Numbered from the stretch's first letter, positions 487-43,998 are shown. The stretch: DNA of 64,000 nucleotides from Gemmatimonadales bacterium (GCA_033764615.1 JANRIU010000095.1:2774-66773), one strand, 5' to 3'. Notes: generated by a model not told the origin, from the sequence alone. Translations and numbers: made by a program.

Positions 487-2195
<1,709 letters not shown>

Positions 2196-2209
2196 GGGGA
2201 TGTCCTCGC

Positions 2210-8078: not shown

Positions 8079-8151
8079 TGCGGCGCGTAGGAATCGAACC
8101 TACAACCTAGTGATTAAGAGTCACTTGCTCTGCCAATTGAGCTAGCGCCGC
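8079..8151 (-). tRNA. tRNA-Lys (anticodon CUU)
   Basis: The manual cloverleaf has acceptor GCGGCGC/GCGCCGC. The anticodon arm is AGUGA-CUCUUAA-UCACU. The T arm is GUAGG-UUCGAUU-CCUAC. The discriminator is A and there is no encoded CCA. Confidence 0.85.
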
Positions 8152-8169
8152 TCAGCCGTCGACTCGCGA

Positions 8170-8241
8170 TAGCCCCAACGGGAATCGAACCCGTCTCTCG
8201 ACCTTGAAAGGGTCGCGTCCTGACCGATAGACGATGGGGCC
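8170..8241 (-). tRNA. tRNA-Glu (anticodon UUC)
   Basis: The manual cloverleaf begins GGCCCCA-UC-GUCU...GGAC. The anticodon arm is CGACC-CUUUCAA-GGUCG. The T arm is ACGGG-UUCGAUU-CCCGU. The acceptor closes with a G1-U72 wobble. Confidence 0.85.
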
Positions 8242-8269
8242 GGGGCTCCCTGCGGGCACCGCGATGTCA

Positions 8270-8342
<73 letters not shown>

Positions 8343-8378
8343 ACTGGCCCTGCTGTCCTGCGTCCTGCCCTGCACCGA

Positions 8379-8451
8379 CAGGCCCGGAGGGAATCGAACC
8401 CCCAACCCCCGGTTTTGGAGACCGGTGCTCTACCAATTGAGCTACGGACCT
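8379..8451 (-). tRNA. tRNA-Trp (anticodon CCA)
   Basis: AGGUCCGUAGCUCAAUUGGUAGAGCACCGGUCUCCAAAACCGGGGGUUGGGGGUUCGAUUCCCUCCGGGCCUG. It is close to the E. coli tRNA-Trp architecture. The anticodon loop is CUCCAAA. Confidence 0.9.
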
Positions 8452-8465
8452 TCAAACCGTACCAG

Positions 8466-8540
8466 GGTGGCTGACGGGGATCGAACCCGCGACCTCCGGA
8501 GCCACAGTCCGGCGCTCTAACCGTCTGAGCTACAGCCACC
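8466..8540 (-). tRNA. tRNA-His (anticodon GUG)
   Basis: GGUGGCUGUAGCUCAG... carries the extra 5' G(-1) typical of tRNA-His. The anticodon arm is CCGGA-CUGUGGC-UCCGG. The T arm is GCGGG-UUCGAUC-CCCGU. Confidence 0.9.
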
Positions 8541-8599: not shown

Positions 8600-9244
8600 T
8601 CAAGCGGGCCAGAAGCGCCGAGCGAGCTCCTCAGTGCGGCGCGCGGGCGTCACCTTCCGCCCATCCACCGACGCCACCGGCACGACGCCTCGCGCCGCGT
8701 TCGCCAGGAAGAGCCCGTTGAGCAGCACCTCCGCGAGCACGGCGCGCTTCGGCACCACCGGCCCCATCAGTTCCTCGATGCGCAGGCGCGAGACCGAGTG
8801 CAGCACGCCGAGCGAGAAGTCCGGCGCGCCCACGCGGTCCCGCTCCCACCAGAACACCGACCAGACCGTCGCCTCGCAGAGGAAGCCCTGGCCCGAGAGG
8901 AAGAGCGCGTCGTCCGCGCCGACCGCGCTGACCTCCATCGTCGCCCGGTCGAACTGCGCCCGCTCGACCGTCTTGTGCGGGTACGGCACGAACGGCGTCT
9001 TCACGGTGATGAGCTGCACCGGGTCGGTCCGGCCCACCGGACGGTCGCCGGAGGTGACGCCGTCGACGCCGATCTCGAGGCGGCGCACGCGGTCCCCGGT
9101 GCCCGTCGGCACCTCCATCTCGGGCGGGATCGGCACGCCGAGGTCGCGCGCGCTCTCCGACATGCGGCGGAGGTGCAGGTGCCAGAGCGGCGCCTTCCCC
9201 CCGCGAATCCGGATCGTCTCGATCAGCCTCGGCGTCGTCCGCAT
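8600..9244 (-). CDS. Aminotransferase class IV family protein (aminodeoxychorismate lyase-like, short form)
   Basis: 214-aa ORF. It has a class IV-like layout, a candidate PLP lysine in PYPHKTVERAQ and a C-terminal GVVPVASVDGRKV motif typical of the fold. Confidence 0.65.
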   Translation of the reverse strand: MRTTPRLIETIRIRGGKAPLWHLHLRRMSESARDLGVPIPPEMEVPTGTGDRVRRLEIGVDGVTSGDRPVGRTDPVQLITVKTPFVPYPHKTVERAQFDRATMEVSAVGADDALFLSGQGFLCEATVWSVFWWERDRVGAPDFSLGVLHSVSRLRIEELMGPVVPKRAVLAEVLLNGLFLANAARGVVPVASVDGRKVTPARRTEELARRFWPA

Positions 9245-9251
9245 GCTCCGC

Positions 9252-10130
9252 TCACCCCTCCGCGTCGTCCGTCCGCGCCCCGGCGCGCATCGCGCGCCAG
9301 GTCGTCGCCCCCAGGATCAGCACGCCCCCCACCGCCGGCCACGCACCCGGCCGCTCGCCCAGGAGCAGCCACGACCACGCGGGGTTGAGCGCAGGCTCCA
9401 GCAGCAGCAGGAGCGATGCCTCGAGGGCGGGCACCTGCGTCATGCCCCGCGTCAGCAGGAAGTAGGCCAGCGCGATCTGCGCCACCCCGAGATACGTCAG
9501 CACCGCCCAATCGGTTGCGGTCGGCGCCATCGGCAGCGCGAACGGCAGGCACGCCGCAAATGCGAGCAGGTTCCCGAGGGCGACCGCCCCGACGCCGCTC
9601 GGCGGCGCCTCGCCGGGCGCGACCTTCCGGGTTCCCAACCAGCGCAGGCCGAGCAGCGTCACCGCGTACGCGAGCCCCGACGCCGCCGCGAGCGCGTTGC
9701 CGGTGGCCGGGTCGGGCGCGGTGCGCACCGGCGCGGCGCTGCCGAGCACCACGCACGCGAAGCCCGCGAGGACCGCGGCGGCGACGGCGAGGTCCGCGCG
9801 GCGCAGCCGCTCCCGCAGGAGCCACGGCCCGAGCAGGAGCAGGTAGAGCGGCGCCGTGGACTGCAGGAAGATGGCGTTGGCGCTGGTGGTGAGCTTGTTC
9901 GCGGCGACGAAGAGCGTGAGCGTCGCCGCGTACGCGGCGGCGACGAGCGCCGTCTCGCGGCGCCAGCCGCGGCGCGCCTGCGGCACGAGCAGCAGCAGCA
10001 CCAGGCCCGCGATGCCGCTGCGGAGCCCCGCGACGGGCCACGCGCCGAGGGTGGTCGCCTTGATGGCCGCGCCACCGGTGCTGAAGAGGAGCGCGGCGCC
10101 GAGCACCTCGAGGCGGCCCGCGGCGCGCAC
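9252..10130 (-). CDS. EamA/DMT family transporter
   Basis: 292-aa polytopic membrane ORF (about 10 hydrophobic segments) with two EamA-like halves. Its start lies 5 nt after the TolC-like stop. Confidence 0.8.
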   Translation of the reverse strand: MRAAGRLEVLGAALLFSTGGAAIKATTLGAWPVAGLRSGIAGLVLLLLVPQARRGWRRETALVAAAYAATLTLFVAANKLTTSANAIFLQSTAPLYLLLLGPWLLRERLRRADLAVAAAVLAGFACVVLGSAAPVRTAPDPATGNALAAASGLAYAVTLLGLRWLGTRKVAPGEAPPSGVGAVALGNLLAFAACLPFALPMAPTATDWAVLTYLGVAQIALAYFLLTRGMTQVPALEASLLLLLEPALNPAWSWLLLGERPGAWPAVGGVLILGATTWRAMRAGARTDDAEG

Positions 10131-10135
10131 CGCGG

Positions 10136-11602
10136 CTACTCGAGCGGGAGCGCCGCGGGGAAGCCGAGCGCCACGGCGAGCGCGGCGCGCGCGCCGGCGA
10201 GCTTCGCCCGCGCCGCCGCGAGCTTCACCGACTCGTCCAGGAGGAGCCGCTCGCGCAGGTTCACGACGAACAGCGTGCTCTCGCCGCTCTCGAAGCGGCG
10301 CACCTCGCCGTCACGCATCGCGCGCGCCTGCGTGACGGCGACGGCCTGCCGCGCCACGACCTGCTCGAACGTCTGCAGGTCGAACGCGGCCGCCGCGACG
10401 GCCAGGCGCACCTCCCGCGCGGCGAGCCCGCGGTCGAGCTCGGCGGACTCGAGCTTGGCGCGCGTGGCGCCGAGCTTCCCCCGCTCCTTCATGAGCAGCA
10501 GCGACTGCTTCCCCTCGAAGCCGAGCTTCTGGTTGCCCGCGAGGTCGGGCCACGGGCCGGTCCAGAAGCCCATCGAGTCGGCGCTGCCGAGCGCGCTGAA
10601 GGAGAGCGACGCCTCGGGCAGGAGCCCCTGCGCGGCGAGCAGCCGGTCGGCGCGGGCGCGCACGACCTTCGCGTCCGCCTTCAGGATCTCGGGGTGCCGG
10701 CGCAGCGCCTCGAGGAGCCACTGGTCGAGGCGCGCGGAGTCGGCGCGCTCGGCGCCCGGCACGTCGAGCGCGGGCTCGGTGCCGGCGACGAGCTCCAGCG
10801 GGCCGCCGTCGGCGTCCCAGAGGAAGAGGGCGACGGACTGGGTGGCCGAGAAGAACGCCGCGTCGGCCTCGAGGCGCGCCACGGTGCGGCGCTGCACCTC
10901 GAGCGCGGCCTCCACCGTGTCGAGCGCCGCGGCCTCGCCGTTGACGAAGCGGCTGCGCACGAGCCGCGCGCGCAGCTCGGCGAGCTCCTGGCCCTCGCGC
11001 GCGATGCGGCGGCGCTGGTCGGTCTCGTACCAGCCGGCGTACTCCTTGACCGCCGAGAAGAGCAGCTTGTTCACCGCGCCGAGCCGCTCGCCGATCGCCT
11101 GGTCGCGGAGCGCGGCGGCCTGCGCCACCGCGTTCCGGCGCTGGTCGGTGATGATGCCGCGCGCGAGCGGGATCGTCACCCCGGCGACGAACTGCCCGGA
11201 GTTCGGCGTCCCCGCCTCCGGGTTGATCGACGTGCCGCGCCCGCGCTCGAAGCCGAGCTTCACGTCGATGCCGATCGGCGTCGGCGCCTTGAGGCCCGCC
11301 TCGAGGTAGTCGTACGACGTCTTGCCGGTGAAGCGCTTGCGGTCGATGAGCAGGTACGCCGCGGGGTCGAAGAGCCCGCCGCGCGCGGCGAGCAGCTCCG
11401 CCTCGGCCTGGCGCTGCAGCAGCCGCGCCTGCCGCGCCACCGGGTGCCGCTCGAGGACGAGCGTGTAGAAGTCGCGGAGCGGCAGCTGCGGCGCCGACGC
11501 GAGCGTCGCGGTGGGGGCCGCCGGGGGGGCCGCCTGCGCGCCGAGCGGGGCGGCCGCGGCCGCCAGGGCCACGACCGCACGGCGGAGCGGACGCGCGCTC
11601 AC
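10136..11602 (-). CDS. TolC-family outer membrane efflux protein
   Basis: This is the C-terminal 488 aa of the 893-aa fused ORF. The GTG start at 11602 overlaps the HlyD stop (GTGA). It has a signal peptide (RRAVVALAAAAAPLGAQA) and two TolC-type repeat halves (LRDFYTLVLERHPVARQARLL..., coiled-coil Ala/Leu/Arg pattern). Confidence 0.8.
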   Translation of the reverse strand: MSARPLRRAVVALAAAAAPLGAQAAPPAAPTATLASAPQLPLRDFYTLVLERHPVARQARLLQRQAEAELLAARGGLFDPAAYLLIDRKRFTGKTSYDYLEAGLKAPTPIGIDVKLGFERGRGTSINPEAGTPNSGQFVAGVTIPLARGIITDQRRNAVAQAAALRDQAIGERLGAVNKLLFSAVKEYAGWYETDQRRRIAREGQELAELRARLVRSRFVNGEAAALDTVEAALEVQRRTVARLEADAAFFSATQSVALFLWDADGGPLELVAGTEPALDVPGAERADSARLDQWLLEALRRHPEILKADAKVVRARADRLLAAQGLLPEASLSFSALGSADSMGFWTGPWPDLAGNQKLGFEGKQSLLLMKERGKLGATRAKLESAELDRGLAAREVRLAVAAAAFDLQTFEQVVARQAVAVTQARAMRDGEVRRFESGESTLFVVNLRERLLLDESVKLAAARAKLAGARAALAVALGFPAALPLE

Positions 11603-12966
11603 TTCAGGTCGGTCTCGGCGGGCTTCGCCAGCGTCTGCGGCTCCGCGTCCTTCGCCTGGATGGCGGGCGGGAAGCCGTTCAGCTGCCGCCACAGCTCGAA
11701 CCAGACGCGCACCGTGTCGAGCATCGCCCAGCCGACGACGCGCGTCCCCATGCGCAGCTGCGCCGGCCACGGCGTGTCCTCCGGGTCGGGCGAGACGAGC
11801 ACGCGGAACTTCGCGTCCTTCGACTCCACCATGTCGATCGCCGTCACCACGCCGCCGAACGTGCCGACCGCCACCGACGGCCAGCCGATGAACTGCAGCG
11901 CCGGCCACCCCTCGAACTGGAGCCGCACCCGGCGCCCCTTCCGCAGGAGCGGGATGTCGTTCCCCTTCACGTACAGCTCCACCGCCTGCGACGGCGCCGC
12001 GGGGACGATCCGCACCACGGCGTCGCCCTCCTTGATCTGCTCGCCGATGCCGGCGCGCACCGCGCGCTGCACGTAGCCGTCCTGCGGCGCGTCGATGCGG
12101 TAGAAGCCCTGGCGCAGCTGGTAGCTCGTGTACTGGTTGCGCAGCTTCGCCACGTCGGCCCGCGCCTCCTGCACCTCCGACATCGTCTTGGCGCGGTCGG
12201 CCTCCGCCTTCGCCATCTTCTCGCGGTACTCGGCGGTGACGCCGTCGAGCTCGATGCGCGCGTTGATCAGCTCGTTGCGGGCCTTGAGCAGCTCGTTGCG
12301 CTTCTCCACCACCTTCGCGTCCGCCCCCTGCCGGCGGGCGACGAAGTTCTGGTACCGGTTCAGCGACTCCACGCCGTCCTTGTACATCGTCTCCATGCGG
12401 CGCGCCTGGTCGACGGCGAAGGCGGAGTCGACGAGCGCCTGCTCGAGCGACGCCGAATCCTTCTGCACGGCGAACTCCGCCTGCAGCAGCTTGTTGCGCG
12501 TCTGGCTCAGCTTGAGCTCGAGCGCCTGCTCCAGCGTCTGCACCTGCCGCAGCAGCGCCTCGGCGGTCTGCACCTTCGCCGAGATCGACCCCTCCTTGGC
12601 GGTCACCTGCTCGCCGAGGCGGTCGACCAGCTTCGGGTCGAGGTACGTCTCCTTCACCTCGGAGATCTGCAGGATCGGCGTCCCCTTGGTCACGAACTGC
12701 CCCTCGGCGACGAACCACTTCTCGATCCGCCCCGCGATCACGGTCGGGACGACCTGCGGGCGGTCCTGCGGGCGGAGCGCGCTCACCGTGCCGTCGGCCG
12801 AGATGTTCTGCTGCCACGGCAGGAAGAGCGCGACGATGAAGATGACGAGCAGCGCGCCCATCCAGCGCGCGAACTGGCGCTGGGCGTCGGAGGTGTTGAG
12901 CAGCCGGGCGGAGTAGACGCCGGCCGAGTCCAGGTCGAAGCCCGGACGGACCCCGGGCGCGCTCAT
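11599..12966 (-). CDS. HlyD-family membrane fusion / periplasmic adaptor protein
   Basis: This is the C-terminal 455 aa of the 1188-aa fused ORF. The ATG at 12966 overlaps the ABC stop (ATGA). It has an N-terminal TM (WMGALLVIFIVALFLPW), a lipoyl-like motif (GRIEKWFVAEGQFVTKGTPILQI), a long coiled coil and a beta-barrel domain (YRIDAPQDGYVQ...). Confidence 0.9.
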   Translation of the reverse strand: MSAPGVRPGFDLDSAGVYSARLLNTSDAQRQFARWMGALLVIFIVALFLPWQQNISADGTVSALRPQDRPQVVPTVIAGRIEKWFVAEGQFVTKGTPILQISEVKETYLDPKLVDRLGEQVTAKEGSISAKVQTAEALLRQVQTLEQALELKLSQTRNKLLQAEFAVQKDSASLEQALVDSAFAVDQARRMETMYKDGVESLNRYQNFVARRQGADAKVVEKRNELLKARNELINARIELDGVTAEYREKMAKAEADRAKTMSEVQEARADVAKLRNQYTSYQLRQGFYRIDAPQDGYVQRAVRAGIGEQIKEGDAVVRIVPAAPSQAVELYVKGNDIPLLRKGRRVRLQFEGWPALQFIGWPSVAVGTFGGVVTAIDMVESKDAKFRVLVSPDPEDTPWPAQLRMGTRVVGWAMLDTVRVWFELWRQLNGFPPAIQAKDAEPQTLAKPAETDLK

Positions 12967-15188
12967 CGGGCCTCCCCGCTGCGGTTGAGCTCCAGGGTCT
13001 GGCTGACGAGTGCGCGGAACGTCGCGTCCTCCATCAGCTCGGCGTACGTCCCCTCGCGCGCGACGCGGCCCCCCTCGAGCCAGAAGATCCAGTCGCACGC
13101 CGAGAGGTACATCGGGTCGTGCGTGGCGGCGAGCACCGTCCAGTCGCAGTCGCGGTCGGAGAGGAGGCGGATCACCTCGCGGCGGTAGCCGGGCTCGAGG
13201 TGCTCGAAGAGGTCGTCGATGATGAGCAGCTTCGGCCGCCCCGCGATCGCGCGCGCCAGCGCGATCTTCCGCACCATCGTCATCGGCAGCAGGCGGCCGC
13301 CGTTGGTGATCCGCGTGTCGATCCCCTCGGGCAGGAGCTGCACCTGCTCCGCGAGGCCGACGCGCTCGATGGCGAGCAGCACGTCCTCGGTGCGGATGCC
13401 GGTGCGGCCGAGCGAGATGTTCTCCTCGATCGTGCCCTCGAAGAGCTCCGGCGCCGCGAGCGTGCCGCCGACCTGCTGGCGGAACGAGAGCGGGTCCAGG
13501 TCGCGCAGGGAGACGCCGTTGTAGACGATGGCGCCGTGGTAGCCCGGCAGCATGCCGCCGAGCAGCTTGAGCAGCGTCGACTGCCCGGCGCCCTCGAGCC
13601 CCGTGACCGCCACCACCGCGCCGCCGTCCATCGAGAGCGAGACGTCGCGGATCGCCCAGTCGTCCGACTCCGGGTACCGGTACGACAGGCTCCGCGTCGT
13701 GACCTGCACGCCGGGCTCCTTGTCGTGCTCGGGGAGCAGCAGCCCCCCCGCCGCCTCGACCGGCAGGTCGGTGACGTGGCCCGACTTCTCGACGGCCACC
13801 AGCGCGTCGTACACCGTCGGCATCGTGAGGATCAGCTTCTCGATGCCGGCGAGGATCGTCACCACGATCACCTCCGACGCGACGAACTGGCCCAGGGTGA
13901 TCTGCTGGTCGCTCACCAGCACCATGCCGAGCACGAGCAGCGCCGCGGTGATCACCACCTTGAAGGCGACCATCCCCGTGCCCTGCGTCACCAGCACGCC
14001 GAAGTGGCCGCGGCGCGCCTTCAGGTAGTACGAGAGCTCGCGGTCCATCCGGTCGAGCGGCAGGTTGGAGCGGCCGGCGAGCTTCATGGTGCCGATGGTG
14101 CGCGCCATCTCCTCCAGCCAGTGCACGACGCGGTACTTGTACTTCGACTCCTTGAGGGCCGTGTCGAGGCCGCGCTGGTACGTCCAGCGCAGCAGCACGC
14201 CGAGCGAGACGACGAGGATGGCGGCGAAGCCCAGGAAGTACGGGTGGTAGAAGGCGAGCAGGACGAGGCCGAAGACGACCTGCAGGCCCGCCGCGAGGCC
14301 GTCCATCAGCAGCTTCGGGATCGACTTCTGGAGCGTGACGACCTCGAAGAAGCGGTTCATGAGCTCCGGGAGGTCCTCGGCGTTCACCGCCTCCACCTGC
14401 AGCCGCGGCACCCGCGTCGCGAACTCGAGGGCGATCCGCGCGAAGACGCGCTGCTGGATCACCTCCAGCACGTGCATCTCCGCGATCGTGAGCACGCCGC
14501 CGATCGCGGTCGCAATGACGACGAAGAGGATCAGCAGCGCCGCCGGCTGGATGATCTCGCGCGTCACCGCGAGCGAGGTGATCGCCTGCACCGCGAGCGG
14601 CAGCGCCAGCGAGAGCAGCGCGCTCACCACCGCGTAGAAGAGCGCGAGCAGGATCTCGCGCCGCTCCTGCCGCATCAGCAGCTTGAGCCGCTCGAACGCG
14701 GTCGGGTGCGCGTGGTCCGCCCCGTGGCCCGCGTCCAGCGACACCGACGGCGTCACGTTCACCGGCACGAGGCAGAGCGCGCCGCCCGCCGAGGCCGCGA
14801 GCGCCGCGAACGCGTCCACCGGCATCGGCACCTCCCGCGGCACCGCCCCCTCCGCGATCACCGTCACCTGCACGTCCCCGCCGTGCCGCCCGTGCGCGAG
14901 GTAGGCGATCGCGGGCTCGCCCGCCGCCGCGGCGGCGAGCACCAGCACGGGGAACGCCCCCTGCCGCGCCAGCTGCTCCAGCTCCTCGCGCTCCGCCGGC
15001 CGGTCGAGCCACGCCAGCTCGAACGGCGTGCCCGCCTGCAGCACCCGCTCGCGCGCCTGCGCCGGGTCGCCCGCAACGGCCGGCAGCTTCTTCAACACCT
15101 GCGCCCGGAGGTCCGGGTCCATCATGAGTCCCAGCCGCTTCGCGACCGCATCGGTCACGAGCCACGCCAGGGGCTGCGTCGTCGTCAC
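12963..15188 (-). CDS. T1SS-type ABC half-transporter with a C39-like N-terminal domain and degenerate ATPase motifs
   Basis: 741-aa ORF with a GTG start and a GGGAG RBS. It has an N-terminal domain of about 150 aa, a 6-TM ABC exporter domain and an NBD. By eye against HlyB, the NBD reads as follows: Walker A is GLEGAGQST (Lys to Gln); the Q-loop is TLAA (Gln lost); the signature LSGGQ is replaced by LPMTM; Walker B is LLIIDD (catalytic Glu to Asp); the H-loop His is retained (AATHD). Confidence 0.9.
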   Translation of the reverse strand: MTTTQPLAWLVTDAVAKRLGLMMDPDLRAQVLKKLPAVAGDPAQARERVLQAGTPFELAWLDRPAEREELEQLARQGAFPVLVLAAAAAGEPAIAYLAHGRHGGDVQVTVIAEGAVPREVPMPVDAFAALAASAGGALCLVPVNVTPSVSLDAGHGADHAHPTAFERLKLLMRQERREILLALFYAVVSALLSLALPLAVQAITSLAVTREIIQPAALLILFVVIATAIGGVLTIAEMHVLEVIQQRVFARIALEFATRVPRLQVEAVNAEDLPELMNRFFEVVTLQKSIPKLLMDGLAAGLQVVFGLVLLAFYHPYFLGFAAILVVSLGVLLRWTYQRGLDTALKESKYKYRVVHWLEEMARTIGTMKLAGRSNLPLDRMDRELSYYLKARRGHFGVLVTQGTGMVAFKVVITAALLVLGMVLVSDQQITLGQFVASEVIVVTILAGIEKLILTMPTVYDALVAVEKSGHVTDLPVEAAGGLLLPEHDKEPGVQVTTRSLSYRYPESDDWAIRDVSLSMDGGAVVAVTGLEGAGQSTLLKLLGGMLPGYHGAIVYNGVSLRDLDPLSFRQQVGGTLAAPELFEGTIEENISLGRTGIRTEDVLLAIERVGLAEQVQLLPEGIDTRITNGGRLLPMTMVRKIALARAIAGRPKLLIIDDLFEHLEPGYRREVIRLLSDRDCDWTVLAATHDPMYLSACDWIFWLEGGRVAREGTYAELMEDATFRALVSQTLELNRSGEAR

Positions 15189-15234
15189 TCGCCGTCTCCC
15201 TGATGGCCCCTAATCCCTAGGGCCTGAACGGGTT

Positions 15235-15269
15235 GGGCGAAACCCTACACCCGTCGTAGGATTTCGCCC
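15235..15269 (-). promoter_or_regulatory. Extended hairpin in the leader of the ABC/HlyD/TolC operon
   Basis: GGGCGAAA-C-CCTAC-ACCCGTC-GTAGG-A-TTTCGCCC gives 13 bp of stem. It lies between the ACOX stop (15321) and the ABC start (15188). No U-tract follows. Confidence 0.4.
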
Positions 15270-15299
15270 AAGCGATAATCATAGGTCAGCGTACCCGCC

Positions 15300-15315
15300 G
15301 GCACCATGCGGTGCC
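15300..15315 (-). terminator. Short GC hairpin directly after the acyl-CoA oxidase stop
   Basis: GGCACC-ATGC-GGTGCC, located 5 nt downstream of the stop at 15321..15323 on the minus strand. Confidence 0.35.
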
Positions 15316-15320
15316 GCTGC

Positions 15321-17225
15321 TCACCCGTCGCCGAGGGCGATCGGCGCGGCGAGCAGCGCGTCGGGGATGCCGAAGCCGTCCACGAGCGCGACGGCGTGCG
15401 GACGCAGCTCGGCGCACAGGGCGTTGACCTGCGCGCGGATCGCCTTCGCCTTCGGCGCCTCGAACAGGCCGTTGGCGAGGTACCACCCCTCGTGGCGCTC
15501 GAGCATGGAGAGCGCGTAGAGGTCGGCGAGGCGCAGCAGCGCCTCGCGCGTGCCGCCGCCGACCTGGGGGATGGCATCGCGGAACGCCTCATGGACGACC
15601 CGGTCGATGTGCGCGCCGGCGAGGTGGAGCAGGTGGTCCTGCACCTCGATGAGCGCGCCGAACGCGTCCATGCCGTCGTCCAGGCGCCCCTTGAGCCGCC
15701 GCGCCGCGGAGCGGAGCAGGCGCTCCTCGCGGTACCGGAGGGCGCCGAGCTGGAACGCCGGGTCGCGCAGGTGCTCCTCGTCGGTGAGGCGGCTCACCAC
15801 GGCGTTCCGCCGCGCGAGGCGCGTGCCGGTGGCGCGGGCGAGGTAGCGCACGAGGCCGGTGAAGCCGAGGCCGCCGAGGTGTTCGCGGTACCCGGTGAGG
15901 AGCCCCTTGGCGAGGAGCTGCATGAGGACGGTGTTGTCGCCCTCGAAGGTCTGGAAGATGTCGGTGTCGGCGCGGAGGACGCCGATGCGGTTCTCGGCGC
16001 GGTAGCCGACGCCGCCGCAGCACTCGCGGGCGAGCTGGAGCGTCTCGCCGGTGTGCCAGGTGGCGACCGCCTTGAGGCCCGCCGCGAGCCCCTCCATCTC
16101 GCGTTCGGTCGCCGCGGTGCGCCGCTGGAAGTCGCGCACGAGGCGCTTGATGCCGAAGTCGAGCGCATAGGTGCGCGCGAGCGGGAGGAGCAGGCGCCGC
16201 TGGTGCGTGAGGTAGTCGAGCAGCGGCACCTCCTGCCCGGGCTGCGGCCCGAACTGCCGCCGCCGCGCGCCGTAGCGCACCGCGATGGCGAGCCCGCTCT
16301 TCGCCGCCGAGAGCGCCGACGCGGCGATCGTGATGCGGCCGCCGACCAGCGTGGAGATCATGGTGAAGAAGCGCTTGCCGGGGTTGGCGATGGCGCTCTC
16401 GTACGTGCCGGCCTCGGTGACCCGGCCGAAGCGGTCGAGCAGCGCCTCGCGCGGGACGCGCACGTGGTCGAACGCGATCTGCCCGTTGTCGACGCCGTTC
16501 AGGCCGAGCTTCTCGCCCGAGTCGCGCACCTGCACGCCCGGCAGGAGGCGCCCCGCCTCGTCGCGCAGCGGCACCAGCAGGGCGTGCACGCCGTGGCAGG
16601 TGCCGCCCACGTGCAGCTGCGCGAAGACGGTCGCCATCCGCCCGTGCACCGCGGCGTTGCCGATCCACTCCTTCCACGCCGAGGCGTCGGGCGTGTGCAC
16701 CACGAACTCGCCGGCCGCCGCGTCCCACCGCGCCTCCGTGCGGATCTCGCGCACGTTGGAGCCGTGGCCGATCTCGGTCATGGCGAAGCAGCCGGGCAGC
16801 TCGCCGCTGCCGATGCGGGGCAGCACGGTGCGGTGGTGCCGCTCCGTGCCGAGCAGCGCGACGGAGCCGCCGAAGAGGCCGAACTGCACGCCGAACTTGA
16901 TGGTGAGCGAGAGGTCGTGGAACGCGATCGCCTCGAACGCCGCGAAGAACGCCGCCGGGTCGTCGTCGCCGCCGGCCACCTCCGGGTAGGCGAGCTTCCC
17001 GAGTCCCTCCGCCGCGAGGACCTGCAGCCACTCGTACACCAGCTCGCGGTACGCCTCCTTCGGCAGCCCGTACCGGTACGCGAAGCGCGGCTCGGCGAGC
17101 AGCTGCTTGATGCGCTCGCGAAGCGCGGCGTGCTCGCCATCGAGCAGGCGCTGGAGCGCGGCCGGGTCGGGCGTGAAGGCGGGAGCGGGGGACGGCGCGG
17201 GGCGGGCGGAGGCGGTCGCGGGCAT
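15321..17225 (-). CDS. Acyl-CoA oxidase / long acyl-CoA dehydrogenase family protein
   Basis: This is the C-terminal 634 aa of the 1212-aa fused ORF, starting at MPATASARP. It has ACOX-like motifs (CFAMTEIGHGSNV, GEKLGLNGVDNGQIAFDHVRVP, ECCGGVGY, TFEGDNTVL) and a long C-terminal ACOX-type helical domain. Confidence 0.85.
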   Translation of the reverse strand: MPATASARPAPSPAPAFTPDPAALQRLLDGEHAALRERIKQLLAEPRFAYRYGLPKEAYRELVYEWLQVLAAEGLGKLAYPEVAGGDDDPAAFFAAFEAIAFHDLSLTIKFGVQFGLFGGSVALLGTERHHRTVLPRIGSGELPGCFAMTEIGHGSNVREIRTEARWDAAAGEFVVHTPDASAWKEWIGNAAVHGRMATVFAQLHVGGTCHGVHALLVPLRDEAGRLLPGVQVRDSGEKLGLNGVDNGQIAFDHVRVPREALLDRFGRVTEAGTYESAIANPGKRFFTMISTLVGGRITIAASALSAAKSGLAIAVRYGARRRQFGPQPGQEVPLLDYLTHQRRLLLPLARTYALDFGIKRLVRDFQRRTAATEREMEGLAAGLKAVATWHTGETLQLARECCGGVGYRAENRIGVLRADTDIFQTFEGDNTVLMQLLAKGLLTGYREHLGGLGFTGLVRYLARATGTRLARRNAVVSRLTDEEHLRDPAFQLGALRYREERLLRSAARRLKGRLDDGMDAFGALIEVQDHLLHLAGAHIDRVVHEAFRDAIPQVGGGTREALLRLADLYALSMLERHEGWYLANGLFEAPKAKAIRAQVNALCAELRPHAVALVDGFGIPDALLAAPIALGDG

Positions 17226-17384
17226 GGGGGGAAAATACCCGGGAGCCGGGGGCGGGGGGCCAGGGGCCGGGGGCGACGGCGGGCGGGCAAACGGACGAAC
17301 GGCTAGGCTCCACCGCGGCGGCCCTCCCCGCCGACCCGCCTGCCCCCCTGCCCCCTTGCCCCCGGCCCCCAAGCCCCCGGCCCC
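17226..17384. promoter_or_regulatory. Divergent intergenic region with a mirrored G-run tract (17226..17288) and C-run tract (17321..17384)
   Basis: The sequence reads gggagccgggggcggggggccaggggccgggggcgacggcgggcggg ... ccctccccgccgacccgcctgcccccctgcccccttgcccccggcccccaagcccccggcccc, then the ATG. Both divergent mRNAs therefore have C-rich leaders with no obvious Shine-Dalgarno motif. Confidence 0.6.
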
Positions 17385-18775
<1,391 letters not shown>

Positions 18776-18791
<16 letters not shown>

Positions 18792-19279
18792 GCGTACGAC
18801 TCCTCGCGCTCGACCACGAAGCCGCGGCGGAGGTAGTTCGGCAGGGCGGACGGATGGTCGAGGGTGCAGGTGTTCAGGATGATCGCCGGCGGCGCGCTCC
18901 GCGCCGCCTCGGCGATCGCGAGGTCGAGCAGCGGTCCGCCCAGCCCGCGGCCGAGCCACGCGGGCAGCAGCCCGAAGTATGCGAGCTCCTCCGTGCCATC
19001 GGCGAGGCGGTCGAGCTGCACGAAGCCCGCGAGCGCGCCGTCGAGCTCGGCGAGGAAGACGCGGCGGCCCGGCTCCGCGAGGTAGGCATCCAGCCGGGCG
19101 TCATCCCACGCGAGCTTGTCGCGCCAGTGCCAGGGGCCGCCGACGTCGGCGTAGAGCCGCCGGTAGAGCGGCGCCGGGCACGGCGACACCGCGCGCAGGC
19201 CGAAGCCCGGCGGCGCGGGACGCGACGGGCGGTGGTCGCCGAGGCGGAGGTGCGTGCGCGTGACGGGGACGGTCGGCAT
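18776..19279 (-). CDS. GNAT family N-acetyltransferase
   Basis: This is the C-terminal 167 aa of the 293-aa ORF, starting at MPTVPV. It has a GNAT acetyl-CoA motif (LLPAWLGRGLGGPLLDLAI) and a C-terminal NYLRRGF. Its 3' end overlaps the convergent lyase gene by 16 nt. Confidence 0.75.
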
Positions 19280-19298
19280 GCCGTGTACTTTAGGCACG

Positions 19299-20483
19299 AT
19301 GCGCCGACTCGCCATCGCCGGGCTCCTCGCAGCCGCCGCGTGCGGCGGCCCGAGACGCACGCCCGAGGCCGCGCCCCCACCGCCCTTCAGCGCCATCACC
19401 GCCGGCGAATACCACACCTGCGCGCTCGACCGCGATGGCCTCGCCTGGTGCTGGGGCATCAACCAGTCGGGCCAGCTCGGCGACAGCACGATCACCGACC
19501 GGCTCCGCCCCGTGCGCGTGGCGGGCGGCATCCGCTTCGCCCTGCTCGAGGCGGGCGGGGCCCACACCTGCGGCCTCTCCGTGTCAGGCGAGCTCTGGTG
19601 CTGGGGGCGCAACGTGCACGGCGAGCTCGGCGACGGCACCGTCGAGATGCGCTCCACGCCGGTGCGCGCCGTGCCGGGCGAGCGCTTCCGCTCGCTCGCC
19701 GTCGGCTACGAGTTCACCTGCGGGCTCCGCACCGACTCGGTGCTGCTCTGCTGGGGCGCCGACGACACGGGCCAGCTCGGCGACGGCGACGAGCGCGTCG
19801 CGGAGCGGTACGCGCCGGTGACGGTGAAGGGGCCGCTCCGCGTCGGCCTCGCGCGCGCGGGGCGGCACCACGCCTGCGCGCTCGACACCGGCGGCCATGC
19901 GTGGTGCTGGGGCTCCGGCGGCCCGCTCGGCGACGGCACGCTCGAGACGCGACGGTCGCCCGTCCGCGTGAAGGGCGCCGTGCCGCTGACGCAGCTCGCG
20001 ATCGGCGCCGAGATCTCGTGCGGCATCGGCCGCGACGCACGCGCCTGGTGCTGGGGCCCGAACATCGACGGCCAGCTCGGCACCGGCCTCCTCCGGCCGA
20101 CGATCCTCACCCCCGGAGAGGTCGCCGGCCGGCACCGCTGGACGGCGCTGGCCGCCGGCCGCTACCGCGTCTGCGGGCTGGACGAGGGGAAGCGCGCGTG
20201 GTGCTGGGGCTCCAACTACCTCGGCGCCCTCGGCGACGGCAGCGGCCGCGACCACGACGTGCCGGTCCGCGTCGCGGCCGACCGGCGCTACGTCGCCATC
20301 ACGCTCGGCGAGACCCACGGCTGCGCGCTCGACACCGACGGCATCGCCTGGTGCTGGGGCATGAACGTGACGCCCGTCGGCGCGGGCATGCTGGGCGACG
20401 GGACGGGGCAGTCGAGGAGCGTGCCCGTCAGGGTGGGCGGCGCGCCGGAGGGACGGCCAGGAGGCCAGCCTCCCGCTCGCTGA
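19299..20483 (+). CDS. RCC1-repeat (beta-propeller) lipoprotein
   Basis: Trimmed to MRRLAIAGLLAAAACGG (lipobox). It has at least 7 repeats of the RCC1 signature (HTCAL..DG.AWCWG.N..GQLGDG). Alternative starts are GTG 19254 and ATG 19278. Confidence 0.8.
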   Translation: MRRLAIAGLLAAAACGGPRRTPEAAPPPPFSAITAGEYHTCALDRDGLAWCWGINQSGQLGDSTITDRLRPVRVAGGIRFALLEAGGAHTCGLSVSGELWCWGRNVHGELGDGTVEMRSTPVRAVPGERFRSLAVGYEFTCGLRTDSVLLCWGADDTGQLGDGDERVAERYAPVTVKGPLRVGLARAGRHHACALDTGGHAWCWGSGGPLGDGTLETRRSPVRVKGAVPLTQLAIGAEISCGIGRDARAWCWGPNIDGQLGTGLLRPTILTPGEVAGRHRWTALAAGRYRVCGLDEGKRAWCWGSNYLGALGDGSGRDHDVPVRVAADRRYVAITLGETHGCALDTDGIAWCWGMNVTPVGAGMLGDGTGQSRSVPVRVGGAPEGRPGGQPPAR

Positions 20484-20496
20484 CGGCTGGCCTCCT
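20459..20496. terminator. Bidirectional hairpin between convergent genes (RCC1 protein / acetoacetyl-CoA synthetase)
   Basis: AGGAGGCCAGCC-N14-GGCTGGCCTCCT gives a 12-bp stem. The loop contains the RCC1 gene stop codon. Confidence 0.5.
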
Positions 20497-20519
20497 TCCC
20501 GCCTGCCACCTCGCCGCCG

Positions 20520-22496
20520 TCATTGGGCCAGCTCCGCCCTCCCCCGGAACTCCTCCAGCGCCGCCGGGTTCGCGAGCGCCTCGGTGTTCGTCACGGGGCG
20601 GCCGTGGATCACCTCGCGCACGGCGAGCTCCGTGATCTTGCCGCTGATGGTGCGCGGGATGTCGCGCACCTGCAGGATCTTCCTCGGCACGTGATGCGGC
20701 GAGGCGCCGGTGCGGATGGCGTCGCGGAGGCGCTGGCGCAGCGCATCGTCGAGCACGAGCCCCTCGCGCAGCCGCACGAACAGCACCACCCGCACGTCGT
20801 CGCCCCACGCCTGCGCCACCGCCACCGACTCCAGCACCTCGGGCAGCGTCTCCACCTGGCGGTAGATCTCGGCCGTGCCGATGCGCACGCCGCCGGGGTT
20901 GAGCGTCGCGTCGCTGCGGCCGTGGATCACGAAGCCGCCGCGCGGCGTCCGCTCCACCCAGTCGCCGTGGGCCCACGTGCCGGGGAAGCGCGTGAAGTAC
21001 GCCGCGCGGTACTTCGCGCCATCCGCATCGTCCCAGAACGCCACCGGCATGCTCGGGAACGGGCGCGTGCAGACGAGCTCGCCCGGCTCGCCCACGTCTG
21101 CCGGCGTGCCGTCGGCGCGCCACACGTCGACGGCCATGCCGAGGCCCGGCGCCTGCAGCTCGCCGCGATGCACCGGGAGCGTCGGCACGCCGAGCAGGAA
21201 GCAGCTGATGATGTCGGTGCCGCCGCTGATCGAGGCGAGGTGCGCGTCCGGCGCGACGTCGCGCCACGTGTAGTCGAAGCTGGTGGCGGCGAGCGGCGAG
21301 CCCGTGGAGAGGATGGTGCGCACGCGATGCGCCGCGTGCGTCTCGCGCGGCCGGGCCCCCTCCTTCTCGAGCATCGCCAGGTACTTGGCGCTCGTGCCGA
21401 ACACGGTGACCCCCTCGGCGACGGCCAGGTCCCACAGCACGGTGGGCGGCGCGAGCGGCGCGCCGTCGTACAGGACGAGCGTCGCGCCGGAGGCGAGCCC
21501 GGTCACCAGCCAGTTCCACATCATCCACCCGCAGGTGGTGAAGTAGAAGAAGCGGTCGTCGGGCTGGAGGCCGACGTGCAGGCGGTGCTCCTTGAGGTGC
21601 TGCAGCAGCGTGCCGCCCGCGCCGTGCACCATCGCCTTCGGCAGGCCGGTGGTGCCGGACGAGTACATCACGTAGAGCGGATGGTCGAACGGGAGCCGCG
21701 TGAACGTGAGCGGCGCGTCGAGGTGGGAAGCGAGCCAGTCGCCCCAGGCGGTGGCGCCCACCGTGGATCCGCCCTCGCCGAGCCACGGCACCACGACCAC
21801 GCGCCGCAGCGTCGGCAGCGCGGCGGCGATCGCGTCGATCCGCCCGCCGAGCGGGATCGACTTCCCCGCGTAGCGGTAGCCGTCGACCGTCACCAGCACC
21901 GTCGGCGCCACCTGCCCGAAGCGGTCGAGCACGCCCTGCACGCCGAAGTCGGGCGAGCAGCTGCTCCACACCGCGCCGAGCGAGGCGGCGGCGAGCATGG
22001 CGATGATCGTCTCGGCGATGTTCGGCAGGTAGCCCACCACGCGGTCGCCGGGGCCGACACCGTCGTGCCGGAGCGCGGCGGCCGCGGCGGCGACGAGGCG
22101 GGAGAGCTCGCGCCACGAGACAGCGCGGCGGCGCCCCGTCTCGTCCCGGGACACGATGGCGAGCGCGTCGTCGCTTCGGTGCAGCAGGTTCTCGGCGAAG
22201 TTGAGCCGGGCACCGGCGAACCAGCGCGGCCCGAGCTGCGCATCGGGCGGCGCCATCCGGTCGCCACCGGTGAGCACCGCGTCCCACTGGCGGCCGCCGC
22301 CGAGGTCGGCGGCGATGACGCCCGCGTGCGCCCAGACGAGCGGCCAGAACCGCTCCGGGTGGCCGACCGACCAGCGGTGGAGCGCGGCGTAATCGCCCAC
22401 GACGCCCGCCGGTGCGCCCGCAGCGTGGGCGGCGGCGGCGAAGGCGACAAGCGGGGCGGCTGACGGCGAGGCCGGCTGGGCGGAAGGAGGTGTCAT
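20520..22496 (-). CDS. Acetoacetyl-CoA synthetase (acetoacetate-CoA ligase)
   Basis: ORF 20520..22703 trimmed to Met70 (MTPPSAQ), giving 658 aa. It has the AMP-binding motif [15 protein letters not shown] and the N-terminal HRWSV..PERFW...VW region typical of acetoacetyl-CoA synthetases rather than Acs. The C-terminus reads [10 protein letters not shown]. Confidence 0.8.
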
Positions 22497-22551
22497 GACG
22501 CGGTGGATGCTGCCGGGGCGTGGGCGGTGCGGCAAGGGGGCGGGAAACGGA

Positions 22552-22585
22552 AGCCCCCCGCGTCGCCGGGGCGACGCGGGGGGCT
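22552..22585 (-). terminator. Perfect 15-bp stem / 4-nt loop hairpin downstream of PEP-CTERM gene 1
   Basis: AGCCCCCCGCGTCGC-CGGG-GCGACGCGGGGGGCT, located 19 nt after the stop at 22604. On the minus strand it is followed by TCCGTTTCC. Confidence 0.6.
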
Positions 22586-22603
22586 CAGGCCACTGGGCCA
22601 GGA

Positions 22604-23299: not shown

Positions 23300-23400
23300 T
23301 GGTGCCTCACAGTCATCGGGATTCGGGAGCGCTCGAAAAGCGGCGTGTTAGGCATCATCGCATGACGTGCCGCAGAACGCAAGCCCTCGTGTGAATAGCG

Positions 23401-24594: not shown

Positions 24595-24690
24595 GGGCCG
24601 CGAGGTGGGAGACGGCCGAAAGATAAGGCGTCACGCGTCGCGGGTCGCGAGCCGCGGGACTGACCCGCGACCCACGACCCGCGCCCGCCC

Positions 24691-25802: not shown

Positions 25803-29233
<3,431 letters not shown>

Positions 29234-43950: not shown

Positions 43951-43998
43951 GGGGGCGGCCTCCGTGCCGGAGCGGGTCCCCTGATGTTCGGGAACTCC

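What the first reader, a model, noticed from the sequence alone, without database searches (positions are those of the whole stretch)
10136..15188. T1SS-like ABC/HlyD/TolC operon whose only ABC protein has lost most catalytic ATPase residues
Seen in sequence:
- Three tightly coupled genes (ATGA and GTGA overlaps) encode a C39-like-domain ABC half-transporter, an HlyD adaptor and a TolC-like channel.
- Aligned by eye to HlyB, the NBD reads GLEGAGQST at Walker A (invariant Lys replaced by Gln).
- The Q-loop reads TLAA (Gln absent).
- LPMTM stands where LSGGQ should be.
- Walker B reads LLIIDD (catalytic Glu replaced by Asp).
- The H-loop His is kept.

Established knowledge: T1SS ABC proteins act as homodimers, so both composite ATP sites would be degenerate. 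Known asymmetric ABC exporters degenerate only one site and need a competent partner.

Inference: this could be a non-hydrolysing scaffold or gate, a partner of an ABC protein encoded elsewhere, or a transporter energised differently. No candidate substrate (RTX protein, GG-leader peptide) is visible nearby. The operon continues into an EamA transporter and a class IV aminotransferase-like gene.
Basis: partly seen in the sequence, partly recalled or inferred. Interest (0 to 1): 0.75.

Follow-up and report, generated by a model that had tools for sequence, protein, structure and literature searches.

The report
ABC-type export pump with dead ATPase
This three-gene envelope-spanning export pump is built around an ABC-transporter protein that has lost the residues needed to burn ATP, and the loss is conserved across hundreds of bacterial species, so how the pump is powered is an open question.

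Summary
Window 10136-15188 (- strand) encodes an ABC half-transporter (741 aa), an HlyD-like adaptor (455 aa) and a TolC-like channel (488 aa), joined by ATGA and GTGA overlaps. HMMER alignment to canonical ABC domains confirms every substitution: Walker A K->Q, Q-loop Gln lost, LSGGQ->LPMTM, Walker B E->D, H-loop His kept.

It is neither an error nor a pseudogene. The window is from a Gemmatimonadales MAG. Its 110 closest homologs share the degeneracy. A wider family, matched in at least 600 stretches of species-representative genomes (mostly Bacteroidota and Gemmatimonadota), lacks the Q-loop Gln, the signature and usually the catalytic Glu. The ATPase-like domain is under purifying selection (dN/dS about 0.07-0.24), yet the membrane domain is more conserved (46% against 29% identity).

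Gene order ABC-adaptor-channel is near-universal. No second ABC gene lies nearby in 83 of 87 loci. About half the loci have a TetR regulator immediately upstream. A sister clade with near-canonical motifs has the same operon.

My best reading is a functional homodimeric tripartite exporter that does not depend on ATP hydrolysis. Substrate and energy source are unknown, and proton coupling is only an inference. Ten literature searches found no prior description. The C39-like label rests on fold evidence only.

The parts
12963..15188 (-). ABC half-transporter-like protein, 741 aa (N-terminal domain, six-helix type IV exporter membrane domain, degenerate nucleotide-binding domain)
   Evidence: ORF. 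Pfam ABC_membrane and ABC_tran. 100% identical to an NCBI Gemmatimonadales MAG protein. AF2 model pLDDT 88, pTM 0.87. Foldseek best matches are PCAT1 and HlyB, E 1e-28 to 1e-27.
14709..15188 (-). N-terminal domain, residues 1-160: mixed alpha/beta, no catalytic Cys/His; possibly C39-like in fold
   Evidence: No Pfam, PDB-profile or hhalign signal. Modelled confidently. Foldseek E-values are about 1e4 better for PCAT1/HlyB chains that include the peptidase or C39-like domain than for chains that lack it. It is the least conserved domain (15-31% identity) and is absent from many family members.
13764..14696 (-). Membrane domain plus intracellular helices, residues 165-475; the most conserved part of the family
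   Evidence: Mean pairwise identity 45.7% against 29.0% for the nucleotide-binding domain. Near-invariant residues: E242, H315, K410, E439, plus the motifs PEL.NRFF, ESKYKY..WLEE and GQFVASE.
12966..13706 (-). Degenerate nucleotide-binding domain, residues 495-741
   Evidence: PF00005 59.2 bits. Alignment to canonical domains. pLDDT 90-98. dN/dS 0.07-0.24 in close ortholog pairs.
13575..13601 (-). Walker A GLEGAGQST (Lys->Gln536)
   Evidence: Among 110 close homologs this position reads Q55 R33 E11 S3 K3.
13455..13457 (-). Q-loop position, Ala578 in place of Gln
   Evidence: Gln is not among the seven commonest residues here in the 150 representatives, and it occurs in 4 of the 88 locus sequences.
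13275..13289 (-). LPMTM in place of the LSGGQ signature
   Evidence: The family consensus is L[SP]x[SGH][VIL].
13212..13229 (-). Walker B LLIIDD (catalytic Glu->Asp659)
   Evidence: Asp at 95 of 110 close homologs.
13119..13121 (-). H-loop His690, retained
   Evidence: His in 95 of 110 close homologs, but Asn in most Bacteroidota members.
11599..12966 (-). HlyD-like periplasmic adaptor, 455 aa, with a short cytoplasmic N-terminus and one transmembrane helix
   Evidence: HlyD_3 41.2 bits, HlyD_D23, Biotin_lipoyl_2. Weak best PDB match is HlyD 8dck_C. It follows the ABC gene in nearly all loci with enough downstream sequence and is 40-54% identical across phyla.
10136..11602 (-). TolC-like outer-membrane factor, 488 aa, with a signal peptide and no lipobox Cys
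   Evidence: OEP 114 bits, two repeats. Follows the adaptor gene in nearly all loci with enough downstream sequence.
9252..10130 (-). EamA (DMT) transporter, 5 nt downstream of the channel gene; lineage-specific operon extension
   Evidence: Pfam EamA. Same arrangement in the closest relative, L090. Absent from the other loci.
8600..9244 (-). Class IV aminotransferase-fold protein (PabC-like), 7 nt downstream of EamA
   Evidence: Pfam Aminotran_4; weak NCBIfam matches to aminodeoxychorismate lyase. Conserved in L090.
15189..15320 (-). Structured intergenic leader between the acyl-CoA oxidase gene and the ABC gene, with a GGAGA ribosome-binding site 6 nt before the GTG start
   Evidence: Sequence read. 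RNA fold -64.6 kcal/mol, z -3.7, with a 17-bp hairpin.

Best explanation
This is a functional member of a large, so far uncharacterised family of tripartite envelope-spanning exporters (inner-membrane ABC-fold protein, HlyD-like adaptor, TolC-like channel). The ABC-fold component descends from T1SS/peptide-exporter ABC proteins but has lost ATP-hydrolysis chemistry.

Shown:
- The catalytic motifs are degenerate here and throughout the family.
- The gene is under purifying selection.
- The membrane domain, not the nucleotide-binding domain, is the most constrained part.
- The three genes are syntenic across phyla without a second ABC gene.
- An ATPase-motif-bearing sister clade has the same operon.

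Inferred:
- The protein works as a homodimer with two dead composite sites.
- The nucleotide-binding domain survives as a structural, dimerising or ligand-sensing module. It holds the coupling helices and may still bind nucleotide in most of the family: the A-loop aromatic residue and P-loop glycines are conserved, and the Walker A Lys is kept outside the Gemmatimonadota clade.
- Transport through the conserved membrane domain is driven by something other than ATP hydrolysis, most plausibly the proton-motive force or the substrate gradient. This follows the examples of SbmA/BacA and of LmrA without its nucleotide-binding domain.
- The substrate is probably a small molecule, amphiphile or peptide rather than an RTX protein, because a TetR regulator is built into the operon in about half the loci.
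For: Motif degeneracy:
- Confirmed by alignment and translation.
- Shared by the 110 closest homologs.
- Of 150 representatives of 50%-identity clusters, 136 keep 5 or fewer of 10 canonical catalytic positions.

Selection and conservation:
- dN/dS is 0.07-0.24 for the nucleotide-binding domain and 0.02-0.16 for the membrane domain.
- Within-family identity is 45.7% for the membrane domain and 29.0% for the nucleotide-binding domain; the membrane domain is higher in 99.7% of pairs.
- At equal membrane-domain divergence, nucleotide-binding-domain identity is 29% in the degenerate clade and 39% in the near-canonical sister clade.

Synteny and partners:
- ABC, adaptor and channel genes occur in that order in nearly all of 87 loci.
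- Only 4 of 87 loci have another ABC nucleotide-binding domain within about 6 kb, and the window has none.
- A TetR_N gene lies directly upstream on the same strand in 42 of 84 loci.
- The sister clade, with K..LSxGQ..DE..H motifs, is one clade on a tree built from the membrane domain alone and has the same operon.

Structure:
- The confident AF2 model has the type IV exporter fold with an intact nucleotide-binding-domain fold.
- Near-invariant charged or polar membrane-domain residues: E242, E439 (TM6), H315, K410.

Precedents for ion-coupled transport by ABC-fold membrane domains: SbmA (PMC8442886, PMC13316013), MsbA (PMC4979069), LmrA E314 in TM6 and LmrA-MD (PMC6155054).
Against: - No biochemical data exist. 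ATPase loss is inferred from motifs only.
- Most of the wider family keeps the Walker A Lys, and 32 of 150 keep Glu at the catalytic position. Some members may therefore bind or slowly hydrolyse ATP.
- E242 and E439 are also conserved in the near-canonical sister clade. They are not a signature of a switch to proton coupling. Only K410 and E450 are specific to the degenerate clade.
- Whole genomes could not be scanned, so a distant partner ABC protein is not excluded.
- No substrate was identified. TetR linkage is absent in Gemmatimonadota, including this window.
- dS values are near saturation, so the dN/dS values are rough.
Confidence: 0.55

Rival explanations
1. Heterodimer model: the degenerate protein pairs with a canonical ABC half-transporter encoded elsewhere in the genome, which supplies ATP hydrolysis, as in TM287/288, TmrAB or the NHLP ABC1/ABC2 systems.
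For: The best NCBIfam match is NHLM_micro_ABC2 (TIGR03797, 178.6 bits), a subunit of a two-ABC system. Whole genomes could not be searched.
Against: No second ABC gene lies near the module in 83 of 87 loci or in the 64-kb window. The score is far below the TIGR03797 cut-off of 709. The Walker A/B, Q-loop and H-loop side and the signature and D-loop side are degenerate in the same chain. No consensus site could therefore form even with a perfect partner. In known asymmetric exporters the degenerate subunit keeps a canonical signature.
Confidence: 0.1
2. Non-canonical but real ATPase or ATP-gated device: the domain still binds ATP, and binding or slow hydrolysis by unconventional residues gates or drives export, as in the degenerate site of CFTR.
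For: The A-loop aromatic residue is conserved (Y107 of 110 close homologs; Y or F in 113 of 150 representatives), as are the P-loop glycines, Thr538 and Asp658. The Walker A Lys is kept in 113 of 150 wider family members, and Arg replaces it in 33 of 110 close homologs. The domain is under purifying selection.
Against: In this protein and its clade the Walker A Lys is Gln, Glu or Ser in most members. The signature that clamps the gamma-phosphate across the dimer is absent family-wide. The Walker B Asp itself drifts to Glu or Asn in Bacteroidota (D25 E24 N23 of 88). The H-loop is Asn in most. No catalytic position is constrained across the family.
Confidence: 0.2
3. Static scaffold: the ABC-like protein does not transport anything. 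It only anchors the adaptor-channel duct in the inner membrane, for an envelope tether or a periplasm-to-outside route.
For: The adaptor is the most conserved component across phyla (40-54% identity). Conserved motifs sit at the periplasmic face (FYHP loop, GQFVASE, LGIQA).
Against: The cytoplasmic coupling-helix and helix-bundle regions are as strongly conserved as the periplasmic face. The nucleotide-binding domain is retained under selection. A pure anchor would not need this. TetR linkage suggests a ligand-responsive efflux function.
Confidence: 0.1
4. Decaying pseudogene or sequencing/assembly artefact.
For: None beyond the unusual motifs.
Against: The 741-codon ORF is intact with GC3 of 0.99. 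It is identical to an independent NCBI protein call. The degeneracy is conserved in hundreds of species, with dN/dS well below 1.
Confidence: 0.01

Closest known systems
Type I secretion systems (HlyB-HlyD-TolC) and peptidase-containing ABC transporters (PCAT1, ComA)
   Same: Three-component ABC, adaptor and outer-membrane-factor operon. Type IV exporter fold. Closest structural matches are PCAT1 and HlyB. The best-scoring curated families are T1SS and peptide exporters. The adaptor has an N-terminal transmembrane helix. The N-terminal domain may have a C39-like fold.
   Different: All curated family cut-offs are missed by a factor of four or more. The Walker A Lys, Q-loop Gln, LSGGQ and catalytic Glu are absent. 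No C39 sequence signal and no catalytic Cys/His. No RTX or GG-leader substrate nearby. The membrane domain is more conserved than the nucleotide-binding domain. The operon is often headed by a TetR gene.
Heterodimeric ABC exporters with one degenerate site (TM287/288, TmrAB, MsRv1273c/72c, TAP1/2)
   Same: Walker B Glu->Asp and non-canonical motifs, tolerated under selection.
   Different: Those degenerate only one composite site, keep a canonical signature in the degenerate chain, and are encoded next to their partner. Here every motif class in a single chain is degenerate and no partner gene is present.
SbmA/BacA (SLiPT) and LmrA lacking its nucleotide-binding domain
   Same: An ABC-exporter-type membrane domain working without ATP hydrolysis, proton-coupled (PMC8442886, PMC13316013, PMC6155054). 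A conserved TM6 carboxylate (E439 here, E314 in LmrA).
   Different: SbmA has no nucleotide-binding domain, is an importer and has no adaptor or channel partners. Here a folded, selected but catalytically degenerate domain is retained, and the protein sits in a tripartite exporter. Equivalence of E439 and E314 was not tested.
TetR-regulated tripartite drug-efflux pumps (AcrR-AcrAB-TolC, EmrAB-TolC, MacAB-TolC)
   Same: Adaptor plus outer-membrane-factor duct, with a TetR-family gene attached to the operon in about half the loci.
   Different: The inner-membrane component has neither the RND, MFS nor MacB fold. It is a type IV ABC exporter fold with a dead nucleotide-binding domain.

Membership tests
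ABC transporter superfamily, type IV exporter (PF00664 + PF00005) | Six-helix ABC_membrane domain followed by an ABC_tran fold | tested here: met
   PF00664 45.3 bits (cut-off 28) and PF00005 59.2 bits (cut-off 25). AF2 model plus Foldseek match to PCAT1, HlyB and TM287/288.
ABC transporter superfamily (catalytically competent ATPase) | Walker A GxxGxGK[ST] with the invariant Lys | tested here: not met
   GLEGAGQST, with Gln536 at the Lys position.
ABC transporter superfamily (catalytically competent ATPase) | LSGGQ signature motif | tested here: not met
   LPMTM aligns to LSGGQ. The family consensus has no GGQ.
ABC transporter superfamily (catalytically competent ATPase) | Walker B hhhhDE with the catalytic Glu, and the Q-loop Gln | tested here: not met
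   LLIIDD with Asp659; Ala578 at the Gln position.
ABC transporter superfamily (catalytically competent ATPase) | H-loop His | tested here: met
   ATHDP, His690.
Type I secretion system | ABC, MFP and OMF genes in one operon | tested here: met
   Overlapping genes. Synteny in nearly all of 87 loci.
Type I secretion system | ABC component reaches curated T1SS family thresholds (TIGR01846 HlyB, TIGR03375 LssB, TIGR01842 PrtD) | tested here: not met
   155.9 against 725.55, 172.1 against 693.1, and 152 against 510.15 bits.
Type I secretion system | Cognate secreted substrate (RTX, C-terminal-signal protein) encoded nearby | tested here: inconclusive
   None was seen among the neighbours scanned. 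No conserved neighbour apart from TetR across 84 loci. The scan of the window was not exhaustive.
Peptidase-containing ABC transporters (PCAT) / C39-like-domain T1SS ABC proteins | N-terminal Peptidase_C39 domain (Cys/His dyad) or a C39-like domain recognisable by homology | tested here: inconclusive
   No Pfam C39 hit in 22 family N-terminal domains at E<=10. No hit in a PDB profile search. hhalign against the HlyB C39-like domain gives probability 0.14%. No conserved Cys or His. The fold signal is indirect: Foldseek E-values improve about 1e4-fold for targets that include the peptidase or C39-like domain.
Heterodimeric ABC exporters with one degenerate site | Adjacent partner gene, with the degenerate chain keeping a canonical signature so that one consensus site remains | tested here: not met
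   No second nucleotide-binding domain in 83 of 87 loci. The signature is degenerate in the same chain.
SbmA/BacA-like (SLiPT) secondary transporters | ABC-type membrane domain without a nucleotide-binding domain; proton-driven | tested here: not met
   A nucleotide-binding domain is present and confidently folded. Proton coupling is not testable with these tools.

The most novel reading that the evidence does not exclude
A widespread family of envelope-spanning exporters, found mainly in Bacteroidota and Gemmatimonadota, in which an ABC exporter has switched from ATP hydrolysis to ion-gradient or ATP-binding-only energisation while keeping a vestigial, selected nucleotide-binding domain. It would be a natural intermediate between primary and secondary active transport, and a fourth energetic class of TolC-type tripartite pump.
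Probability: 0.3. Interest if true: 0.85.

Novelty: new variant of a known kind. Interest (0 to 1): 0.72.

Why it matters
ABC exporters are defined by ATP hydrolysis, and the known degenerate cases always keep one working site. A homodimeric, doubly dead ABC protein at the core of a tripartite pump, conserved for long periods in hundreds of species, would show one of two things. Either the ABC membrane fold can be driven another way in nature, which so far has been shown mainly for the NBD-less SbmA and for engineered truncations. Or nucleotide-binding domains have a non-catalytic role important enough to be preserved.

The family also comes with a built-in comparison: a near-canonical sister clade with the same operon. 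Cultured hosts are available (Gemmatimonas, Pontibacter, Adhaeribacter, Arcicella, Salegentibacter). The energetic question is therefore directly testable. The module is also a common, currently mis-annotated gene in soil and aquatic Bacteroidota; sources name it 'bacteriocin exporter with peptidase domain'.

Tried and rejected
- A single-sequence AF2 run gave an unusable model (pLDDT 38). It was replaced by an alignment-based run.
- Sequence tests for a C39 or C39-like N-terminal domain were all negative: Pfam on the domain, Pfam on 22 family members, a PDB profile search, and hhalign against the HlyB C39-like domain.
- Ten literature searches found no description of this family. The Chem Rev tripartite-pump review does not mention it.
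- I looked for proton-coupling residues specific to the degenerate clade. E242 and E439 turned out to be shared with the ATPase-motif sister clade, so they do not mark a switch. Only K410 and E450 are clade-specific.
- A roughly 250-aa putative beta-barrel outer-membrane protein lies next to the module in three Gemmatimonas loci. It is absent from the window.
- The pseudogene or artefact reading was rejected.
- The adaptor and channel have no informative close relatives with solved structures.

Full report
**1. What is at the locus**

On the minus strand the window carries five tightly packed genes:
- an ABC half-transporter-like gene (12963-15188, 741 aa);
- an HlyD-like adaptor (11599-12966, 455 aa);
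- a TolC-like outer-membrane factor (10136-11602, 488 aa);
- an EamA transporter (9252-10130);
- a class IV aminotransferase-fold gene (8600-9244).

The ATGA and GTGA overlaps at the first two junctions were read directly. Pfam gives ABC_membrane plus ABC_tran for the first gene, HlyD_3, HlyD_D23 and Biotin_lipoyl_2 for the second, OEP for the third, and EamA and Aminotran_4 for the last two. The ABC protein is 100% identical to a protein of a Gemmatimonadales MAG. The window has about 73% G+C, and the ORF has GC3 of 0.99.

**2. The motif claims**

phmmer against PDB sequences aligns residues 495-731 to canonical nucleotide-binding domains of Pgp-1, ABCB1 and others. I checked the coordinates by translation.

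| Motif | Canonical | This protein |
|---|---|---|
| Walker A | GSSGCGKST | GLEGAGQST (Lys->Gln536) |
| Q-loop | VSQEPALF | TLAAPELF (Gln->Ala578) |
| Signature | LSGGQ | LPMTM |
| Walker B | ILLLDE | LLIIDD (Glu->Asp659) |
| D-loop | SALD | EHLE |
| H-loop | IAHRL | ATHDP (His690 kept) |

The best curated families are T1SS and peptide exporters (NHLM_micro_ABC2 178.6 bits, LssB 172.1, HlyB 155.9, PrtD 152). All scores are four-fold or more below the family cut-offs.

**3. The degeneracy is a family trait**

The 120 closest homologs are 40-59% identical and carry mostly Gemmatimonadota names. They show the same pattern. In the 110 that I aligned:
- Walker A Lys position: Q55 R33 E11 S3 K3;
- signature: LP[ATS][HTS][LV];
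- catalytic position: D95 E12;
- H-loop: H95.

An exhaustive HMMER search of 1.84 billion cluster representatives returned a much wider family. Among the 150 best representatives (358 bits or more), 136 keep 5 or fewer of 10 canonical catalytic positions. The Q-loop Gln is not among the commonest residues at its aligned position. The signature reads L[SP]x[SG][VI]. The Walker B pair drifts among D, E and N. The H-loop is Asn in 74 and His in 31. The Walker A Lys, however, is kept in 113 of 150.

This window therefore belongs to a sub-clade that additionally lost the Lys. Oddly, that sub-clade kept the His that most Bacteroidota members lost.

**4. Distribution and synteny**

A scan of one genome per species used two family-specific membrane-domain peptide patterns. 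The 80 best loci come from Gemmatimonadota and many Bacteroidota lineages: Cytophagales, Cyclobacteriaceae, Saprospiraceae, Chitinophagales and Flavobacteriales. Cultured hosts include Adhaeribacter aquaticus, Pontibacter spp., Arcicella, Salegentibacter, Ohtaekwangia and Chryseolinea. Kapabacteria and Ignavibacteria members also exist.

tblastn with the three window proteins shows the order ABC, adaptor, channel in nearly every locus with enough downstream sequence. The adaptor is the best conserved of the three across phyla, at 40-54% identity. Contexts of individual proteins agree.

A canonical nucleotide-binding domain used as tblastn probe finds only the family's own domain in 83 of 87 loci, and only one hit in the whole 64-kb window. 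Clustering all neighbouring ORFs reveals one further conserved neighbour. It is a TetR_N regulator in 42 of 84 loci, usually directly upstream on the same strand with a 2-13 bp gap or an overlap. It is absent in Gemmatimonadota.

In this lineage the module is instead flanked by beta-eliminating lyase and acyl-CoA oxidase genes upstream and by EamA and Aminotran_4 downstream. The closest relative (59% identity, L090) has the same arrangement.

**5. Selection**

| Comparison | Membrane domain | Nucleotide-binding domain | N-terminal domain |
|---|---|---|---|
| Pairwise identity, wide family | 45.7% | 29.0% | 15% |
| Pairwise identity, degenerate clade | 47% | 29% | not computed |
| Pairwise identity, sister clade | 47% | 39% | not computed |
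| Nei-Gojobori dN/dS, pairs where dS could be estimated | 0.02-0.16 | 0.07-0.24 | not computed |

- The membrane domain is the more conserved in 99.7% of 2846 pairs. This inverts the usual ABC pattern, a statement that rests on established knowledge of the superfamily.
- dS is about 1-2 and near saturation, so the dN/dS ratios are rough. dN of the nucleotide-binding domain is consistently 1.3- to 5-fold higher than that of the membrane domain.
- The domain is therefore selected, not decaying, but relaxed.
- The sister-clade comparison at equal membrane-domain divergence shows that the relaxation goes with motif loss.

**6. A sister clade**

Fourteen of the 150 representatives keep 6-8 of the 10 canonical positions (K..LSxGQ..DE..H). 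Thirteen of them form a single clade in a neighbour-joining tree built from the membrane domain alone. Two that I examined have the same ABC-adaptor-channel operon (L088, L089).

The simplest reading is one ancestral ATP-driven tripartite exporter. Its catalytic motifs were lost once, and the module has been retained for a long time since.

**7. Structure**

With a 110-sequence alignment, AF2 gives pLDDT 88.2 and pTM 0.87. The nucleotide-binding domain is at 90-98 and the N-terminal domain at 84-97. Foldseek against the PDB ranks PCAT1 and HlyB first (E 1e-28 to 5e-27), followed by TM287/288, ABCB8, MsbA and others.

PCAT1 and HlyB chains that include the peptidase or C39-like domain align over about 730-750 columns. 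Their E-values are about 1e4 better than those of the same proteins without that domain. This is the only support for a C39-like fold. All sequence tests are negative, and no Cys or His is conserved. Many family members, about 560-580 aa long, lack the domain entirely.

**8. What is conserved instead**

The strongest family motifs lie in three places:
- the intracellular coupling regions: PEL.NRFF[DE]..T.QK, ESKYKY..WLEE.AR....FK, YL..R..HF, EK......YD.LT..EK;
- the periplasmic face: LPLGIQA, FYHP, LGQFVASE;
- single charged or polar residues: E242 (147 of 150), E439 in TM6 (148 of 150), H315 (136), K410 (132) and Q201 (137), all.

E242 and E439 are shared with the sister clade. K410 and E450 are specific to the degenerate clade, at 95-96% against 27%.

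**9. Mechanism**

Shown: a conserved, selected tripartite module whose ABC-fold component lacks the residues known to be needed for ATP hydrolysis, with no partner gene nearby.

Inferred from established ABC enzymology:
- Walker A Lys->Gln, loss of the signature and Glu->Asp each cripple hydrolysis.
- Both sides of the composite site are degenerate in one chain, so neither a homodimer nor a heterodimer could contain a consensus site.

I therefore favour a homodimeric exporter that does not depend on hydrolysis. The nucleotide-binding domain would be kept as a structural or regulatory module; in much of the family it could still bind nucleotide. The energy source is unknown. Proton or substrate-gradient coupling is the most plausible candidate by analogy with three cases:
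- SbmA (PMC8442886, PMC13316013);
- proton-coupled MsbA (PMC4979069);
- LmrA, whose membrane domain alone acts as a secondary translocator dependent on the TM6 carboxylate E314 (PMC6155054).

The present data do not specifically support a switch to proton coupling, because E439 predates the motif loss. TetR coupling suggests ligand-inducible efflux of a small molecule, amphiphile or peptide. No substrate gene is conserved nearby.

**10. Novelty**

Ten full-text searches and the main review of tripartite systems gave no description of such a family. NCBIfam has no model that it reaches. Sources label members generically, for example 'peptidase domain-containing ABC transporter'. I cannot exclude a description in literature outside the held library.

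I class it as a new variant of a known kind, a tripartite ABC-type exporter, with fairly high interest.

Noticed in passing
window 8079-8539 (-): Cluster of five tRNA genes (His-GTG, Trp-CCA, Glu-CTC, Glu-TTC, Lys-CTT) immediately downstream of the Aminotran_4 gene on the same strand. The only sigma-70-like promoter match of the region lies at 8603-8576.
   Followed up: partly
window 15189-15320 (-): The 132-nt spacer between the acyl-CoA oxidase stop and the ABC start is strongly structured (-64.6 kcal/mol, z -3.7). It contains a near-perfect 17-bp hairpin (TTGGGCGAAATCCTAC...GTAGGGTTTCGCCCAA) without a T-tract. It could be a terminator for the upstream gene or an operator or leader for the pump operon.
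   Followed up: partly
L090 1-10817 and window 8600-18791: The gene order beta-eliminating lyase, acyl-CoA oxidase, ABC, adaptor, channel, EamA, Aminotran_4 is conserved between the window and its closest relative (59% identical ABC protein). The EamA and PabC-like genes are therefore a stable lineage-specific extension of the operon. Their link to the pump is unexplained.
   Followed up: partly
family alignments: Reciprocal pattern between clades. Gemmatimonadota-type members lost the Walker A Lys (3 of 110 keep it) but keep the H-loop His (95 of 110). The locus set, mostly Bacteroidota, keeps the Lys (75 of 88) but has Asn at the H-loop (His in 13 of 88). K410 and E450 are conserved only in the degenerate clade (95-96% against 27% in the sister clade).
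   Followed up: partly
L001 8504-9247, L008 10954-11709, L011 10615-11370: A roughly 250-aa protein with a signal peptide and a C-terminal aromatic residue, probably a small beta-barrel outer-membrane protein. It lies next to the module in three Gemmatimonas-type loci and has no Pfam match. It is absent from the window.
   Followed up: partly
window 17385-27239: Genes of aromatic amino-acid breakdown lie near the operon: a beta-eliminating lyase (tryptophanase or tyrosine phenol-lyase type), a homogentisate-dioxygenase-like cupin and an HPPD-like glyoxalase-fold protein, together with an AMP-binding acyl/acetyl-CoA synthetase.
   Followed up: no
window 19254-20483 (+): A 409-aa predicted lipoprotein made of RCC1-like repeats (recurring WCWG.N..GQLGDG). 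It has a Sec/lipobox-type N-terminus, so it is not a T1SS-type substrate.
   Followed up: no
window 40424-44746 (-), 483-2237 (-): A very long open frame combines a polysaccharide deacetylase and family-2 glycosyltransferase domains (Pga/chitin-synthase-like; possibly several genes read through). A [NiFe]-hydrogenase large subunit lies at the start of the window.
   Followed up: no
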